Origin: a virus
Taxonomy: Duplodnaviria; Heunggongvirae; Uroviricota; Caudoviricetes
Reading direction: 5' to 3' (one strand)
Virus record (IMG/VR): IMGVR_UViG_3300039360_000012
DNA: 5,181 bases
Below, piece after piece: positions 1,020-5,181 of this stretch. Numbering within the stretch: the stretch's first letter is position 1; the number at the start of each line of letters is the position of its first letter. The translations under genes were made by a program, and so were the position numbers. The notes under the pieces are model-generated. The model saw nothing but the letters and a program-made list of their open reading frames with translations, did not search any database and had not been told where the DNA came from.

Positions 1020-1358
1020 ATGAACAAAACGATTTTATTCTGCACGATTATTGCCTTAACAGGATGTAAATCTTTGGATTACGTAAAATCCGGAAAACCT
1101 GTAATGGAAGGTAATTCATTAAAAAATATTGATGAATTGTCAGGCTGCATATCCAGACAATGGGCTGGTAATGGAACACCTATAACATCCCTTCCTATTG
1201 AGAATGGGGTAAGCCTTTTAGTTCCACAGGCTATGGGTGGGTATGATGTTGTGCTTGATATCAAAAAAGCAGGAAATGGCAGTAGTTTTACTCTTTATGA
1301 ACGCGTACCAGCATTAACGCCAAAAATTTTTGCTGATAGTGTTAATGCATGTAAATAA
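1020..1358 (+). CDS. Small secreted lipoprotein (moron) inserted between tail genes I and J; predicted outer-membrane lipoprotein, function unknown (candidate lysogenic-conversion / superinfection-exclusion factor)
   Basis: ATG at 1020 gives MNKTILFCTIIALTG|CKS...: a basic n-region (K3), a hydrophobic h-region and a lipobox L-T-G-C (signal peptidase II type). The residue after the lipidated Cys is Lys, not Asp, so outer-membrane sorting is expected under the E. coli +2 rule. Mature protein is about 92 aa with two additional Cys. Stop is TAA at 1356-1358, followed immediately by TAG. The ORF track starts this ORF at an in-frame TTG at 1008, but the ATG at 1020 gives the canonical signal peptide. 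No strong Shine-Dalgarno is visible. Base composition is markedly AT-rich compared with flanking K/I/J. I do not recognise the protein as a named family. Confidence 0.7.
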   Translation: MNKTILFCTIIALTGCKSLDYVKSGKPVMEGNSLKNIDELSGCISRQWAGNGTPITSLPIENGVSLLVPQAMGGYDVVLDIKKAGNGSSFTLYERVPALTPKIFADSVNACK

Positions 1359-1382
1359 TAGTTAATCCTGCCGTAACTCATG

Positions 1383-1410
1383 AGCCGCCTTTTGGGCGGC
1401 TTTGTCGTTT
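1383..1410 (+). terminator. Candidate rho-independent terminator downstream of the lipoprotein gene
   Basis: Inverted repeat AGCCGCC (1383-1389) / GGCGGCT (1395-1401) around a short T-rich loop, followed by TTGTCGTTT. It is GC-rich and the T tract is imperfect. It lies 25 nt after the lipoprotein stop and just upstream of the J ribosome-binding site. Confidence 0.4.
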
Positions 1411-1424
1411 ATGGAGTGTGAGGA

Positions 1425-4400
1425 ATGGGTAAAGGAAGCAGTAAGGGGCATACCCCGCGCGAAGCAAAGGACAACCTGAAGTCCACGCAGTTGCTGAGTG
1501 TGATCGATGCCATCAGCGAAGGGCCGATAGAAGGTCCGGTGGATGGATTAAAAAGCGTGCTGCTGAACAGTACGCCGGTGCTGGACAGTGAAGGGAATAC
1601 CAACATCGCCGGTGTCACGGTGGTGTTCCGGGCAGGTGAGCAGGAGCAGACACCGCCGGAGGGTTTTGAATCCTCCGGATCCGAGACGGTGCTGGGTACG
1701 GAAGTGAAATATGACACGCCGATCACCCGGACCATCACGTCTGCAAACATCGACCGTCTGCGCTTTACCTTCGGTGTGCAGGCTCTGGTGGAAACCACCT
1801 CAAAGGGGGACAGGAATCCGTCGGAAGTCCGCCTGCTGGTTCAGATACAGCGTAACGGTGGCTGGGTGACGGAAAAAGACATCACCATTAAGGGTAAAAC
1901 CACCTCGCAGTATCTGGCCTCGGTGGTGGTGGATAACCTGCCTCCGCGCCCGTTCAATATCCGGATGCGCAGGATGACACCGGACAGCACCACAGACCAG
2001 CTGCAGAACAAAACGCTCTGGTCGTCATACACCGAAATCATCGATGTGAAACAGTGCTACCCGAACACGGCACTGGTCGGTGTGCAGGTGGACTCGGAGC
2101 AGTTCGGCAGCCAGCAGGTGAGCCGTAATTATCATCTTCGCGGGCGCATTCTGCAGGTGCCGTCGAACTATAACCCGCAGACGCGGCAATACAGCGGTAT
2201 CTGGGACGGAACGTTTAAACCGGCATACAGCAACAACATGGCCTGGTGTCTGTGGGATATGCTGACCCATCCGCGCTACGGCATGGGGAAGCGTCTCGGT
2301 GCGGCGGATGTGGACAAATGGGCGCTGTATGTCATCGGCCAGAATTGCGACCAGTCGGTGCCGGATGGCTTTGGTGGCACGGAGCCGCGCATAACCTGTA
2401 ATGCCTGGCTGACCACACAGCGTAAGGCGTGGGATGTTCTCAGTGATTTCTGCTCTGCGATGCGCTGTATGCCGGTATGGAACGGGCAGACGCTGACGTT
2501 CGTGCAGGACCGACCGTCGGATAAGGTGTGGACCTATAACCGCAGTAATGTGGTGATGCCGGATGATGGCGCGCCGTTCCGCTACAGCTTCAGCGCNNNN
2601 NNNNNNNNNNNNNNNNNNNNNNNNNNNNNNNNNNNNNNNNNAACGGCTGGGAGACGGCGACAGAGCTTGTGGAGGACACGCAGGCCATTGCCCGTTACGG
2701 TCGTAACGTCACGAAGATGGATGCCTTTGGCTGTACCAGTCGGGGGCAGGCACACCGCGCCGGGCTGTGGCTGATTAAAACGGAGCTGCTGGAAACGCAG
2801 ACCGTGGACTTCAGCGTGGGCGCAGAAGGGCTTCGCCATGTACCGGGCGATGTCATTGAAATCTGCGATGATGACTATGCGGGTATCAGCACAGGCGGGC
2901 GCGTGCTGGCGGTGAACAGCCAGGCGCGGACACTGACGCTCGACCGTGAAATCATGCTGCCATCCTCCGGCACCACGCTGATAAGCCTGGTTGACGGAAA
3001 TGGCAATCCGGTCAGCGTGGAGGTCCAGTCCGTCACCGACGGCGTGAAGGTGAAAGTGAGCCGTGTTCCTGACGGCGTTGCCGAATACAGCGTGTGGGGG
3101 CTGAAGCTGCCGACGCTGCGCCAGCGCCTGTTCCGCTGTGTGAGTATCCGGGAGAACGATGACGGTACGTATGCCATCACCGCCGTGCAGCATGTACCGG
3201 AAAAAGAAGCCATCGTGGATAACGGGGCGCACTTTGACGGCGACCAGAGCGGCACGGTGAATGGTGTCACGCCGCCAGCGGTGCAGCACCTGACTGCCGA
3301 AGTCACCGCAGACAGCGGGGAATATCAGGTACTGGCGCGATGGGACACGCCGAAGGTGGTGAAGGGGGTGAGCTTTATGCTTCGCCTGACCGTGGCAGCG
3401 GATGACGGCAGTGAGCGGCTTGTCAGCACAGCCCGGACGACGGAAACCACATACCGCTTCAGGCAACTGGCGCTGGGGCGTTACACGCTGACAGTCCGGG
3501 CGGTAAATGCGTGGGGACAGCAGGGCGATCCGGCGTCGGTATCGTTCCGGATTGCCGCACCGTCAGCGCCGTCGCGGATTGAGCTGACTCCGGGCTATTT
3601 TCAGATAACCGCCACGCCGCATCTTGCCGTTTATGACCCGACGGTACAGTTTGAGTTCTGGTTCTCGGAAAAGCGGATTGCGGATATCAGGCAGGTTGAA
3701 ACCACAGCCCGCTATCTTGGCACGGCGCTGTACTGGATAGCTGCCAGTATCAATATCAAGCCGGGCCATGATTATTATTTTTACATCCGCAGTGTGAACA
3801 CCGTTGGCAAATCGGCATTCGTGGAGGCTGTTGGCCAGCCGAGTGATGATGCATCCGGCTATCTGGATTTTTTCAAAGGAGAGATAGGGAAAACCCATCT
3901 GGCTCAGGAGTTGTGGGCGCAGATTGATAACGGTCAGCTTGCGCCTGACCTGGCTGAAATCAGGACGTCCATTACGGATGTCAGCAATGAAATCACGCAG
4001 ACCGTCAATAAGAAACTGGAAGACCAGAGTGCAGCGATCCAGCAGATACAGAAGGTTCAGGTTGATACAAATAATAACCTGAACAGCATGTGGGCTGTGA
4101 AGCTGCAGCAGATGCAGGACGGACGCCTTTATATCGCGGGTATCGGTGCCGGTATTGAGAACACCCCCGACGGTATGCAGAGTCAGGTGCTGCTGGCGGC
4201 AGACAGGATTGCGATGATTAATCCTGCGAATGGCAACACAAAGCCGATGTTTGTTGGTCAGGGCGATCAGATATTCATGAACGAAGTGTTCCTGAAATAC
4301 CTGACGGCTCCCACCATTACCAGCGGCGGTAATCCTCCGGCATTTTCCCTGACACCGGACGGGCGGCTGACGGCGAAAAATGCAGATATCAGCGGTAACG

Positions 4401-4900
4401 TGAATGCGAACTCCGGGACGCTCAACAATGTCACGATTAATCAGAACTGCCGGATTCTGGGAAAACTGTCAGCCAACCAGATTGAAGGCGATATTGTTAA
4501 AACGGTGGGCAAAGCTTTCCCCCGGGACTCCCGTGCACCGGAGCGGTGGCCATCAGGGACCATTACCGTCAGGGTTTATGACGATCAGCCGTTTGACCGG
4601 CAAATTGTTATTCCAGCGGTGGCTTTCAGCGGTGCCAGACATGAACGGGAGAATAGCGATACTTATTCGTCATGCCGCCTGATAGTGAAGAAAAACGGGG
4701 CTGAAATTTATAACCGAACGGCTCTGGATAATACTCTGATTTACACGGGTGTTATTGATATGCCTGCAGGCAGTGGCGTAATGACACTGGAGTTTTCGGT
4801 ATCAGCATGGTGGGTAAATGGCTGGTATCCCACAGCAAGTATCAGCGATTTGCTGGTTGTGGTGATGAAGAAAGCCACCGCAGGCATCAGTATCAGCTGA
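1425..4900 (+). CDS. J: Tail tip / host-specificity (central tail fibre) protein J, lambda gpJ-like; single gene interrupted by a 45-N run (2597-2641) that breaks the apparent frame
   Basis: ATG at 1425 with GGAG at 1413-1416; the N-terminus [54 protein letters not shown] matches lambda gpJ as I recall it. The two ORF-track pieces (1425..2774 and 2669..4900) are one gene: upstream of the N run the frame reads ...[12 protein letters not shown] (through codon gcN at 2595-2597), and directly after it, at 2642, the other frame reads [30 protein letters not shown]..., contiguous gpJ sequence. Stop is TGA at 4898-4900. Total length is about 1158 codons, similar to lambda gpJ (about 1130 aa). The central part contains fibronectin-III-like segments. 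The C-terminal third is recognisably gpJ-like but diverged from lambda. Confidence 0.9.
2597..2641. other. Run of 45 ambiguous bases (N): assembly gap or masked segment inside gene J
   Basis: Directly visible as n x45. Flanking coding frames differ by one nucleotide, so the true length of the missing segment is not 45. Confidence 0.95.
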
Positions 4901-4918: not shown

Positions 4919-4946
4919 GGGCGTCAGAAATGACGCCTTTTTTATT
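4919..4946 (+). terminator. Rho-independent terminator downstream of J
   Basis: Perfect 7-bp stem GGCGTCA (4920-4926) / TGACGCC (4931-4937) with a GAAA tetraloop (4927-4930), followed by TTTTTTATT (4938-4946). It lies 19 nt after the J stop codon. Confidence 0.65.
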
Positions 4947-4967: not shown

Positions 4968-5181
4968 ATGCGTAAATTATGTGCTGTTATTCTGTCCGCA
5001 GTAGTCTGGCTGGTTGCCGCTGGTACGCCAGCGAGCGCAGCAGAGCATCAGTCCACACTAAGCGCCGGGTATCTTCAGGCCCATACTGATATGCCAGGCA
5101 GTGATGACCTGAAGGGCATTAACGTGAAATACCGTTATGAATTTACGGACACGCTGGGGCTGGTGACGTCATTCAGTTATG
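4968..5181 (+). CDS. lom: Lom-like outer-membrane protein (Ail/Lom/OmpX family beta-barrel), 5' part; continues beyond the window end
   Basis: ATG at 4968 is preceded by GAGAGG (4957-4962) at 5-nt spacing. The translation MRKLCAVILSAVVWLVAAGTPASA|AEHQSTLSAGYLQAHTDMPGSDDLKGINVKYRYEFTDTLGLVTSFSY has a Sec signal peptide ending in ASA. The mature start, with alternating aromatic/hydrophobic residues and the motif GINVKYRYE, matches lambda Lom and the Ail family as I recall them. Position immediately downstream of J is the same as lom in lambda. No stop codon before the window end. Confidence 0.8.
   Translation, partial: MRKLCAVILSAVVWLVAAGTPASAAEHQSTLSAGYLQAHTDMPGSDDLKGINVKYRYEFTDTLGLVTSFSY

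What the first reader, a model, noticed from the sequence alone, without database searches (positions are those of the whole stretch)
3850..4900. Divergent C-terminal receptor-binding region of J points to a receptor other than LamB
The N-terminal and central parts of J are nearly identical to lambda gpJ as I recall it, but from about nt 3850 onward the protein is clearly different. One example is [75 protein letters not shown]; the final about 250 aa keep only a gpJ-like scaffold ([64 protein letters not shown]) with many substitutions up to the C-terminus ...[16 protein letters not shown]. The lambda gpJ C-terminus is the LamB-binding determinant (established knowledge), so this mosaic J probably has a different receptor. 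The nucleotide composition also looks somewhat more AT-rich in this 3' part, consistent with recombinational replacement. If the neighbouring lipoprotein is an exclusion factor, its target may be this receptor.
Basis: partly seen in the sequence, partly recalled or inferred. Interest (0 to 1): 0.6.

Follow-up and report, generated by a model that had tools for sequence, protein, structure and literature searches.

The report
Common OmpC-type tail tip J variant
The tail-tip protein J of this lambda-like prophage really does carry a different receptor-binding end from phage lambda, but that end is the commonest type in E. coli prophages, and a close relative of it has already been shown to use the porin OmpC instead of LamB, so the finding is correct but ordinary.

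Summary
Observation confirmed. J (1425-4900) is about 97% identical in protein to lambda gpJ up to residue ~805. Nucleotide identity falls from ~0.9 to 0.2-0.6 at nt 3829-3880, and GC falls from 0.59 to 0.51.

The divergent part has three modules:
- an alpha-helical shaft 28 residues longer than lambda's;
- a moderately conserved beta-prism ending in the [20 protein letters not shown] block;
- an Ig-like receptor-binding domain (Pfam PF12421) only 44-46% identical to lambda's.

Interpretation supported, and sharpened. The last 168 residues are ~88-91% identical to the natural C-terminus of "gpJ 1A2" (essentially the VT1-Sakai J). Brödel et al. (Nature 2024) fused that C-terminus to lambda J at residue 964. 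It redirected lambda particles from LamB to OmpC, using O157-type OmpC but not K-12 OmpC. A sister type, A8, has been solved in complex with OmpC (PDB 9wcb). OmpC is therefore the probable receptor. The 15 differences from 1A2 cluster at known specificity hot spots, so OmpC-allele range may differ.

Modularity of this "specificity region" was described in 2018. DNA of this domain type occurs in 3379 of 5426 complete E. coli genomes, and lambda's in 98.

The neighbouring lipoprotein is a moron of unknown function, not exclusive to this J type. A masked N-run leaves J's intactness unverified.

The parts
1425..4900 (+). Gene J: central tail fibre / tail tip attachment protein, about 1158-1159 codons, interrupted by a masked N-run
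   Evidence: ORFs and translation. NCBIfam NF049904 lambda_TipJ scores 2327.8 bits against a cut-off of 1950 over the whole protein. Relatives encode an intact 1159-aa J.
2597..2641 (.). Masked run of 45 N inside J. All relatives have 49 nt here, so the frames on the two sides are offset by 1.
1425..3828 (+). Lambda-like part of J: hub domains and two FNIII/Ig domains, about 97% protein identity to lambda gpJ
   Evidence: Pfam Phage-tail_3, Ig_J and Ig_J_second; the last ends at J residue 817, nt 3874.
3829..3880 (+). Junction 1: the interval where similarity to lambda is lost. It falls at the end of FNIII-2 and the start of the alpha-helical shaft (lambda residue 809).
   Evidence: Nucleotide alignment. 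Domain limits from PMC11101478.
3848..4090 (+). Alpha-helical shaft module (J residues ~809-889). It cannot be aligned with lambda beyond its first 27 residues, is 28 residues longer, and is 96-99% identical to phage 21 and PhiR46_1.
4091..4393 (+). Beta-prism (central straight fibre) module (J residues ~890-990), 73% identical to lambda. It ends in the conserved block [31 protein letters not shown], which is the natural and the engineered fusion point (lambda residue 964).
   Evidence: Pfam PF09327. Fusion point in PMC11338833.
4394..4897 (+). Specificity region / Ig-like receptor-binding domain (J residues 991-1158), 1A2 / VT1-Sakai type, predicted to bind OmpC
   Evidence: Pfam PF12421 Ig_GpJ_C scores 128.8 bits at residues 1028-1158. 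Identity over the domain is 0.88 to 1A2, 0.90 to VT1-Sakai, 0.95 to PhiR46_1, 0.65 to A8 and 0.44 to lambda. PDB 9wca/9wcb is the best solved relative.
4500..4525 (+). Junction 2: similarity to phage 21-type J (0.93-1.0 upstream) is lost here, just before the loop [10 protein letters not shown] (lambda residues ~1006-1012)
   Evidence: It coincides with the breakpoint reported at position 49 of region 960-1132 in PMC6646904.
1020..1358 (+). Neighbouring 112-aa lipoprotein gene (a moron in the I-J slot), GC 0.37. Context only: not shown to belong to the J receptor system.
4969..5181 (+). Start of lom (Ail/Lom outer-membrane protein), as downstream of J in lambda
   Evidence: Sequence. Annotation of relatives.

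Best explanation
This is gene J of a lambda-family prophage of Escherichia. Its product forms the trimeric central tail fibre.

The gene is a recombinational mosaic.
- The hub and FNIII part is lambda-like.
- The distal fibre comes from the pool shared with phage 21 and PhiR46-like phages. It has an alpha-helical shaft 28 residues longer than lambda's, followed by the beta-prism.
- The last ~168 residues are the exchangeable 'specificity region'. This is an Ig-like domain whose bottom loops dock into a trimeric porin.

The specificity region here is of the 1A2 / VT1-Sakai type, so the phage most probably adsorbs irreversibly to OmpC, not LamB. By analogy with the solved lambda-LamB and A8-OmpC complexes, porin binding would spread the three domains, twist the prism, flip the shaft and open the hub for DNA ejection.

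Shown here: the mosaic structure, family membership, and close identity to an OmpC-dependent domain.
Inferred: OmpC binding by this allele, which OmpC alleles it accepts, and the triggering mechanism.
For: - Mosaic: protein and nucleotide identity profiles show junctions at 3829-3880 and 4500-4525. GC shifts from 0.59 to 0.51.
- Family: NF049904 lambda_TipJ scores above its cut-off. Pfam Ig_J, Ig_J_second, Phage_Tail_Tip and Ig_GpJ_C occur in lambda order. The gene order is K-I-J-lom.
- Receptor: a frameshift-tolerant alignment to the published gpJ 1A2 DNA gives 153 of 177 identical residues, with several mismatches caused by OCR errors in the stored text. Over the domain, 1A2 is 0.97 identical to VT1-Sakai J and the window is 0.90 identical to VT1-Sakai J, with no indels.
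- Function of 1A2: PMC11338833 reports that 1A2 and A8, fused at lambda residue 964, deliver DNA through OmpC. They were evaluated in a lamB/ompC double deletion carrying plasmid-borne ompC variants, and the wild-type lambda vector gave about 2% delivery in that background. 1A2 uses EDL933 OmpC but not K-12 OmpC.
- Structure: PDB 9wcb holds 'A8 gpJ 713' together with three OmpC chains. The lambda J-LamB mechanism is described in PMC11101478.
- Prior description: PMC6646904 describes residues 960-1132 as an independently exchanged specificity module.
- Negative controls: the domain shows no similarity to the J C-termini of HK022, N15 or HK97.
Against: - No adsorption data exist for this allele.
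- It differs from 1A2/VT1-Sakai at 15 of 168 positions. Nine of these lie in three short stretches (lambda numbering 1045-1053, 1090-1092, 1103-1106) that adjoin published specificity hot spots (1048-1049, 1107), so receptor-allele range, or even the porin used, could differ.
- The 1A2 sequence was read from a machine-read PDF with errors, so the identity figure is approximate.
- The N-run is 4 nt shorter than the homologous stretch in all relatives. A real frameshift, and so a dead gene, cannot be excluded.
Confidence: 0.8

Rival explanations
1. The domain binds a porin or outer-membrane protein other than OmpC (for example OmpF, PhoE or OmpN), or only a set of OmpC alleles different from that of 1A2. 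The reason would be that the loop residues differing from 1A2 are the ones that set specificity.
For: Nine of the 15 differences from VT1-Sakai/1A2 fall in three short stretches next to the indel and host-range hot spots 1048-1049 and 1107 (PMC6646904). In lambda, four point mutations in this region add OmpF use. 1A2 and A8 themselves differ in which OmpC alleles they accept.
Against: The domain is 88-91% identical to 1A2 overall, with no indels. A8 is only 65% identical to the window domain and still binds OmpC, so OmpC use spans much greater divergence than this. The hot stretches were chosen after seeing the data, so the enrichment p-value of about 7e-6 is optimistic.
Confidence: 0.12
2. 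The protein still uses LamB. The divergence would then be neutral drift within one receptor class.
For: It belongs to the same Pfam domain family as lambda's LamB-binding domain (PF12421). LamB, OmpC and OmpF are all trimeric porins that dock in a similar way.
Against: Identity to lambda is 44-46% in the domain, and the loops around lambda 1012, 1048 and 1107 are different. The near-identical 1A2 domain gave only 5% delivery to wild-type MG1655, which carries LamB, against 98% for wild-type lambda vector. It gave 98% delivery once EDL933 OmpC was supplied.
Confidence: 0.03
3. J is a frameshifted pseudogene in a decaying prophage, so the divergent C-terminus is not expressed as part of a functional fibre.
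For: The frames on the two sides of the N-run differ, and the run is 4 nt shorter than in every relative. VT1-Sakai J is annotated as split by a mutation. IS insertions occur in this region in relatives.
Against: The mask need not preserve length. Both parts are otherwise open across 390 and 753 codons. All close relatives encode an intact 1159-aa J. The 743-aa downstream ORF is not on record as a called gene.
Confidence: 0.12

Closest known systems
gpJ 1A2 chimera (Brödel et al., Nature 2024, PMC11338833), whose C-terminus is essentially that of the VT1-Sakai (Sp15) prophage J of E. coli O157:H7
   Same: The specificity region is the same length with the same indel pattern, and about 88-91% identical. 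The conserved fusion block ADISG precedes it in both. The architecture is the same.
   Different: There are 15 substitutions, mostly in three loop stretches: [10 protein letters not shown] against AKHEKEHTDI, GSGV against GHGH, and WWVNG against WLVNN. 1A2 was tested on a lambda shaft and prism, whereas the window has the longer shaft. This allele has not been tested on any receptor.
gpJ A8 / phage 21-type J (PDB 9wca and 9wcb, with OmpC)
   Same: Phage 21 J shares the window's shaft and prism (96-97% identity; the A8 chimera itself carries lambda's). Both have an Ig-like C-terminal domain from the same family, and the porin receptor is OmpC.
   Different: The receptor-binding domain is only 65-69% identical. 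It has a 4-residue deletion at the lambda 1012 loop and a 5-residue insertion at lambda 1048-1053. A8 accepts K-12 OmpC, whereas 1A2 does not.
Lambda gpJ (LamB-binding; PDB 8iyk, 8xcj)
   Same: The first ~805 residues are 97% identical. The domain order, gene neighbourhood, trimeric fibre and presumed triggering mechanism are the same.
   Different: Lambda's shaft is 28 residues shorter and unrelated in sequence. The specificity region is 44-46% identical, and the receptor is LamB.
J 'specificity region' module, lambda residues 960-1132 (Maddamsetti et al. 2018, PMC6646904)
   Same: The window's last 168 residues correspond to this module. Junction 2 lies where that study placed a recombination breakpoint, and the allele differences lie at its hot spots.
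   Different: That study assigned no receptors to natural lineages.
J of HK022 and N15 (FhuA users that carry Cor) and J of HK97
   Same: The role as central tail fibre is the same, and there is weak similarity in the prism to HK022 and HK97.
   Different: There is no detectable similarity in the C-terminal domain (E above 5). The window's lipoprotein is unrelated to Cor.

Membership tests
Lambda TipJ (phage attachment tail tip protein J) | Full-length match to the curated model NF049904 above its cut-off | tested here: met
   2327.8 bits against a cut-off of 1950, covering model positions 1-1163, with the masked residues entered as X.
Lambda TipJ (phage attachment tail tip protein J) | Domain order: hub, two FNIII/Ig domains, fibre (Phage_Tail_Tip), C-terminal Ig_GpJ_C | tested here: met
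   Pfam PF13550, PF24421, PF24489, PF09327 and PF12421 in that order, all above their cut-offs.
Lambda TipJ (phage attachment tail tip protein J) | Gene neighbourhood K-I-J-lom in a tail operon | tested here: met
   An extra lipoprotein gene lies between I and J.
Lambda TipJ (phage attachment tail tip protein J) | Uninterrupted reading frame | tested here: inconclusive
   A 45-nt N-run sits where relatives have 49 nt, and the frames differ across it.
LamB-specific lambda-type specificity region | Close identity to lambda residues 960-1132, including the loops at 1012 and 1107 | tested here: not met
   Identity is 44-46%, and the loops differ in sequence and in length near lambda residues 1107-1114.
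LamB-specific lambda-type specificity region | LamB-dependent adsorption | not testable with these tools
   This needs an adsorption or plaque assay on a lamB deletion.
1A2 / VT1-Sakai-type OmpC-specific specificity region | High identity, without indels, to the 168 residues that sufficed to retarget lambda (fusion at residue 964) | tested here: met
   153 of 177 identical to the OCR-damaged 1A2 sequence, and 0.90 to VT1-Sakai, which is 0.97 to 1A2. There are no gaps.
1A2 / VT1-Sakai-type OmpC-specific specificity region | Identical residues in the variable loop stretches | tested here: not met
   Nine substitutions lie in three stretches (lambda numbering 1045-1053, 1090-1092, 1103-1106).
1A2 / VT1-Sakai-type OmpC-specific specificity region | OmpC-dependent, LamB-independent DNA delivery | not testable with these tools
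   Shown for 1A2 only (PMC11338833).
A8 / phage 21-type specificity region (solved with OmpC) | Its indel pattern (deletion at the 1012 loop, insertion at 1048-1053) and at least ~80% identity | tested here: not met
   Identity is 65-69% and both indels are absent. This is a sister type, not the same type.
FhuA-type J (HK022, N15) | Similarity of the C-terminal domain | tested here: not met
   No alignment at E below 5.
Cor/Llp-like receptor-blocking exclusion lipoprotein (tested for the neighbouring gene) | Lipoprotein signal with lipobox | tested here: met
   LTGC with an invariant Cys16 across 14 homologues.
Cor/Llp-like receptor-blocking exclusion lipoprotein (tested for the neighbouring gene) | Sequence or fold similarity to Cor or another known exclusion or defence protein | tested here: not met
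Cor/Llp-like receptor-blocking exclusion lipoprotein (tested for the neighbouring gene) | Strict linkage to one receptor-binding type of J | tested here: not met
   Of 42 loci, 30 carry type a, 6 a phage 21-like type and 6 a third type.

The most novel reading that the evidence does not exclude
Two readings are not excluded.

1. The window's loop allele ([10 protein letters not shown] / GSGV / WWVNG) specifies an OmpC-allele range, or a porin, different from 1A2.
2. The 112-aa outer-membrane lipoprotein inserted between I and J is a new superinfection-exclusion factor that blocks porin-type J receptors, playing for OmpC the role that Cor and Llp play for FhuA.

The evidence for the second is weak. 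The gene sits in a classic moron slot next to the receptor-binding gene. In 36 of 42 sampled loci it accompanies J types that are related to OmpC binders.
Probability: 0.1. Interest if true: 0.5.

Novelty: already known. Interest (0 to 1): 0.15.

Why it matters
It matters little as a discovery. J's C-terminal specificity region is a known exchangeable module. OmpC-using J variants are known from phage 434, Gifsy-1, phi330 and the engineered 1A2 and A8 vectors, and this type is annotated in most E. coli genomes.

It has practical value in two ways. It lets one predict that this prophage, if active, adsorbs through OmpC and probably not to K-12. It also adds a natural loop allele that could be tried when tuning OmpC-allele range in lambda-based delivery vectors.

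One useful correction for readers who use lambda as the reference: among natural E. coli prophages, lambda's LamB-binding domain is the rare exception.

Tried and rejected
- **Source of the window.** A 51-nt pattern from the receptor-binding domain hit only an Escherichia ruysiae contig among species representatives. That locus is 95% identical and lacks the lipoprotein gene, so it is not the source. Contigs that encode the identical protein I are 96-99% identical, none exact.
- **Testing for a split J.** I looked up the 743-aa downstream ORF as a called gene. It is not on record, which is uninformative.
- **Receptor data for the closest isolated phages (PhiR46_1, PhiR47_1, PhiR55_1).** The only paper found mentions them in another context.
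- **A 2026 receptor-prediction preprint.** It deals with Drexlerviridae-type GpJ, not lambda-type.
- **Meyer et al. 2012.** Not held. The residue numbers were taken from PMC6646904 instead.
- **The lipoprotein.** No phage-genome DNA match. No Pfam, NCBIfam or PADLOC family. The structure prediction was confident, but fold matches were generic. It has no similarity to Cor or to the HK97 and HK022 morons in the same slot.
- **FhuA-type J.** Considered and rejected, because the C-terminus shows no similarity to HK022 or N15.
- **Structure prediction of the receptor-binding domain.** Not run, because solved relatives at 65% and 46% identity already exist.
Full report
**Layout of the window**

- The 3' part of K lies at 16-408, and I at 306-947.
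- A small low-GC ORF lies at 1020-1358.
- J lies at 1425-4900.
- A terminator-like hairpin lies at 4920-4937, and lom starts at 4969.
- J is interrupted by 45 N (2597-2641), and the reading frames on the two sides differ by one base.

**Checking the observation**

I fetched lambda (NC_001416) and aligned the two J proteins.

- Up to residue ~800, each block of 40 residues has 36-40 identities.
- The next blocks fall to 22, 5 and 18 identities. The window carries 28 extra residues in this stretch.
- Identity recovers to 29 and 38 of 40 around the block [20 protein letters not shown]...ADISG.
- The last ~160 residues have 12-21 identities per 40.

The nucleotide profile agrees. Identity to lambda is 0.88-0.99 per 90 nt up to 3854, 0.20-0.61 over 3855-4214, 0.78-0.89 over 4215-4394, and about 0.5 after that. 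The last long identical run ends at 3828, and nothing aligns after 3880.

GC is 0.590 before 3828 and 0.512 after it. Lambda's own 3' part is also lower in GC (0.543 against 0.583).

**Anatomy of the divergent part**

The lambda tail structure paper divides gpJ into hub domains, two FNIII domains, an alpha-helical shaft (residues 809-861), a beta-sheet prism, and an Ig-like receptor-binding domain. Four bottom loops of that domain insert into LamB (PMC11101478).

- In the window, Pfam's second Ig domain ends at residue 817 (nt 3874), so the break with lambda falls exactly at the start of the shaft.
- The shaft (about nt 3848-4090) is 81 residues against lambda's 53. It cannot be aligned with lambda beyond its first 27 residues.
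- The prism (4091-4393) is 73% identical to lambda.
- The last 168 residues (4394-4897) are 46% identical to lambda, yet still match Pfam PF12421, 'Tip attachment protein J, C-terminal receptor binding domain', at 128.8 bits.
- The whole protein scores 2327.8 bits on NCBIfam lambda_TipJ, above the cut-off of 1950.

**A second junction**

- Phage 21 J is 0.93-1.0 identical to the window from the start of J to about nt 4500, including the long shaft and the prism. Identity then drops to 0.51-0.60.
- PhiR46_1 J stays at ~0.95 throughout.
- The window therefore combines a shaft and prism shared with phage 21-like phages and a receptor-binding domain of a different type.
- This junction lies at lambda residues ~1006-1010. 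Maddamsetti et al. placed a recombination breakpoint at the same place (position 49 of region 960-1132). They showed that this 'specificity region' evolves as an independent module across 1207 natural J homologues, with lineage-defining indels at 1012, 1048-1049, 1077-1078 and 1107 (PMC6646904).

**Which receptor**

A translated search of 50,697 phage genomes with the last 159 residues sorts lambda-like J proteins into groups:

- more than 90% identical: PhiR46_1, PhiR47_1, 2G7b, VT1-Sakai, the PPompW prophages and many Stx2a phages;
- 60-66% identical: mEp460, 1H12, BP-4795 and many Stx1 phages (phage 21 J, aligned separately, is 68-69% identical to the window over the domain);
- about 44% identical: lambda, DE3 and HK629;
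- a further group at about 43%.

Brödel et al. built lambda particles whose gpJ carries natural C-termini fused at lambda residue 964. They evaluated these in a lamB/ompC double deletion carrying plasmid-borne ompC variants. They found that chimera A8 uses OmpC of both K-12 and EDL933, while chimera 1A2 uses EDL933 OmpC and many other alleles but not K-12 OmpC. The wild-type lambda vector gave about 2% delivery in that double-deletion background (PMC11338833).

Their supplement prints both DNA sequences, although the stored text has OCR errors. Comparisons of the window with these sequences give the following.

- A frameshift-tolerant alignment of the window's last 177 residues gives 153 identities to 1A2 and 112 of 182 to A8.
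- In a multiple alignment over the domain, 1A2 is 0.97 identical to VT1-Sakai J.
- The window is 0.90 identical to VT1-Sakai, 0.88 to 1A2, 0.95 to PhiR46_1, 0.65 to A8 and 0.44 to lambda. Phage 21 is 0.82 identical to A8.

The PDB holds 'A8 gpJ 713' (9wca, 9wcb). Entry 9wcb also contains three OmpC chains, so a sister type has been solved on its receptor.

HK022, N15 and HK97 J show no similarity to the window's C-terminal domain.

The best-supported receptor is therefore OmpC. This is an inference from about 90% identity to a tested domain.

**Limits of that inference**

- Among 13 distinct sequences of this type collected here, variation concentrates in three stretches.
- The window differs from VT1-Sakai/1A2 at 15 positions. 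Nine of these fall at lambda numbering 1045-1053, 1090-1092 and 1103-1106, next to the published hot spots.
- The enrichment p-value is about 7e-6, but I chose the stretches after seeing the data.
- Because 1A2 and A8 already differ in which OmpC alleles they accept, the window allele may have its own allele range.
- GenBank host fields fit a non-K-12 range: PhiR46_1 and PhiR47_1 were grown on ECOR13 and PhiR55_1 on E. coli C. This is circumstantial.

**How common the variant is**

- DNA of this domain type (381 nt, at least 80% identity) occurs in 3379 of 5426 complete E. coli genomes, with up to 10 copies per genome. The window's own allele (at least 99% identity) occurs in 35 records.
- Lambda's domain occurs in 98 genomes, all at 99% or more. 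The listed hits are laboratory K-12, B and DE3 strains.
- The variant is therefore the norm and lambda is the exception.

**Intactness of J**

Lambda, PhiR46_1 and ten contigs that carry the identical protein I all have 49 nt where the window has 45 N. All of the relatives whose contig spans the whole of J encode an intact 1159-aa protein. The mask may simply not preserve length. I cannot exclude a real 4-nt deletion.

**The neighbouring lipoprotein**

- The 112-aa product has a lipobox (LTGC, Cys16) and two further conserved cysteines.
- Its GC is 0.37.
- It has no Pfam, NCBIfam or PADLOC match, and belongs to phrog_914, of unknown function.
- It has no DNA match in the phage collection, but occurs in 337 of 5426 E. 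coli genomes.
- Homologues at 50-60% identity occur in Klebsiella, Enterobacter, Kluyvera and Jejubacter.
- It is unrelated to Cor and to the HK97 and HK022 morons that occupy the same I-J slot.
- In 42 IMG/VR loci that hold both this gene and a J C-terminus, 30 have the window's type, 6 a phage 21-like type and 6 a third type.
- PhiR46_1 and VT1-Sakai have the window's J type without the gene.

There is therefore no specific link to this receptor type. An exclusion role remains pure speculation.

**Verdict**

Both the phenomenon (a modular J specificity region) and this particular module (the 1A2/VT1-Sakai type, which uses OmpC) are already described. The finding is ordinary.

Noticed in passing
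window 1020-1358 (+): A 112-aa lipoprotein gene (lipobox LTGC, GC 0.37) is inserted between I and J. It is absent from 50,697 phage genomes at DNA level but present in 337 of 5426 complete E. coli genomes. It belongs to phrog_914 (unknown function) and has 50-60% homologues in Klebsiella, Enterobacter, Kluyvera and Jejubacter. The structure prediction is confident, but fold matches are generic (Flpp3/DUF3568, BamC N-domain). It is not similar to Cor.
   Followed up: partly
window 2597-2641: The masked N-run is 45 nt, whereas lambda, PhiR46_1 and ten close contigs all have 49 nt there. The J frames upstream and downstream are therefore offset by one base. This is either a mask that does not preserve length or a real 4-nt deletion.
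   Followed up: partly
L076 (HK022) 653-973; L077 (HK97) 1476-1976: HK022 and HK97 carry unrelated annotated morons in the same slot between I and J. This junction is therefore a recurrent insertion site for accessory genes.
   Followed up: partly
window 4394-4897, compared with L001 5024-5404: Lambda's LamB-type receptor-binding domain DNA is found in only 98 of 5426 complete E. coli genomes, and the listed hits are laboratory strains. The window's type is in 3379. The textbook domain is the rare one.
   Followed up: yes
window 4500-4525: The junction with phage 21-type J lies inside the receptor-binding domain at lambda residues ~1006-1010. A published analysis of natural J homologues placed a recombination breakpoint at the same position.
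   Followed up: partly
window 1382-1402 and 4920-4943: Terminator-like GC-rich hairpins with T tails lie just upstream of J (after the lipoprotein gene) and between J and lom. Phage 21 has annotated terminators at the corresponding places.
   Followed up: no
L075 (Escherichia ruysiae NZ_CABVLQ010000001.1): An E. ruysiae prophage J carries exactly the window's loop sequence (a 51-nt exact match) but lacks the lipoprotein gene and is about 95% identical overall. The loop allele therefore moves independently of the moron and across Escherichia species.
   Followed up: partly
L065 3585-5892; E. coli c1-17 (H131): Close relatives have insertion sequences in this tail region. One has an IS21-like element (transposase plus IstB) between K and I. 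Two E. coli genomes have IS1 in the region. Some of these prophages are evidently decaying.
   Followed up: no
L004 (VT1-Sakai) 2066-5538: The VT1-Sakai J, whose C-terminus is essentially the functional 1A2 domain, is annotated as two ORFs 'truncated by a mutation'. A working receptor-binding module can therefore persist in a broken J gene.
   Followed up: no
Supplementary file 1 of PMC11338833, parts 7-8: The stored text of the gpJ 1A2 and A8 DNA sequences contains many machine-reading errors (indels). Identities computed from it are lower bounds. The PDB sequence of A8 (9wca) is clean.
   Followed up: yes
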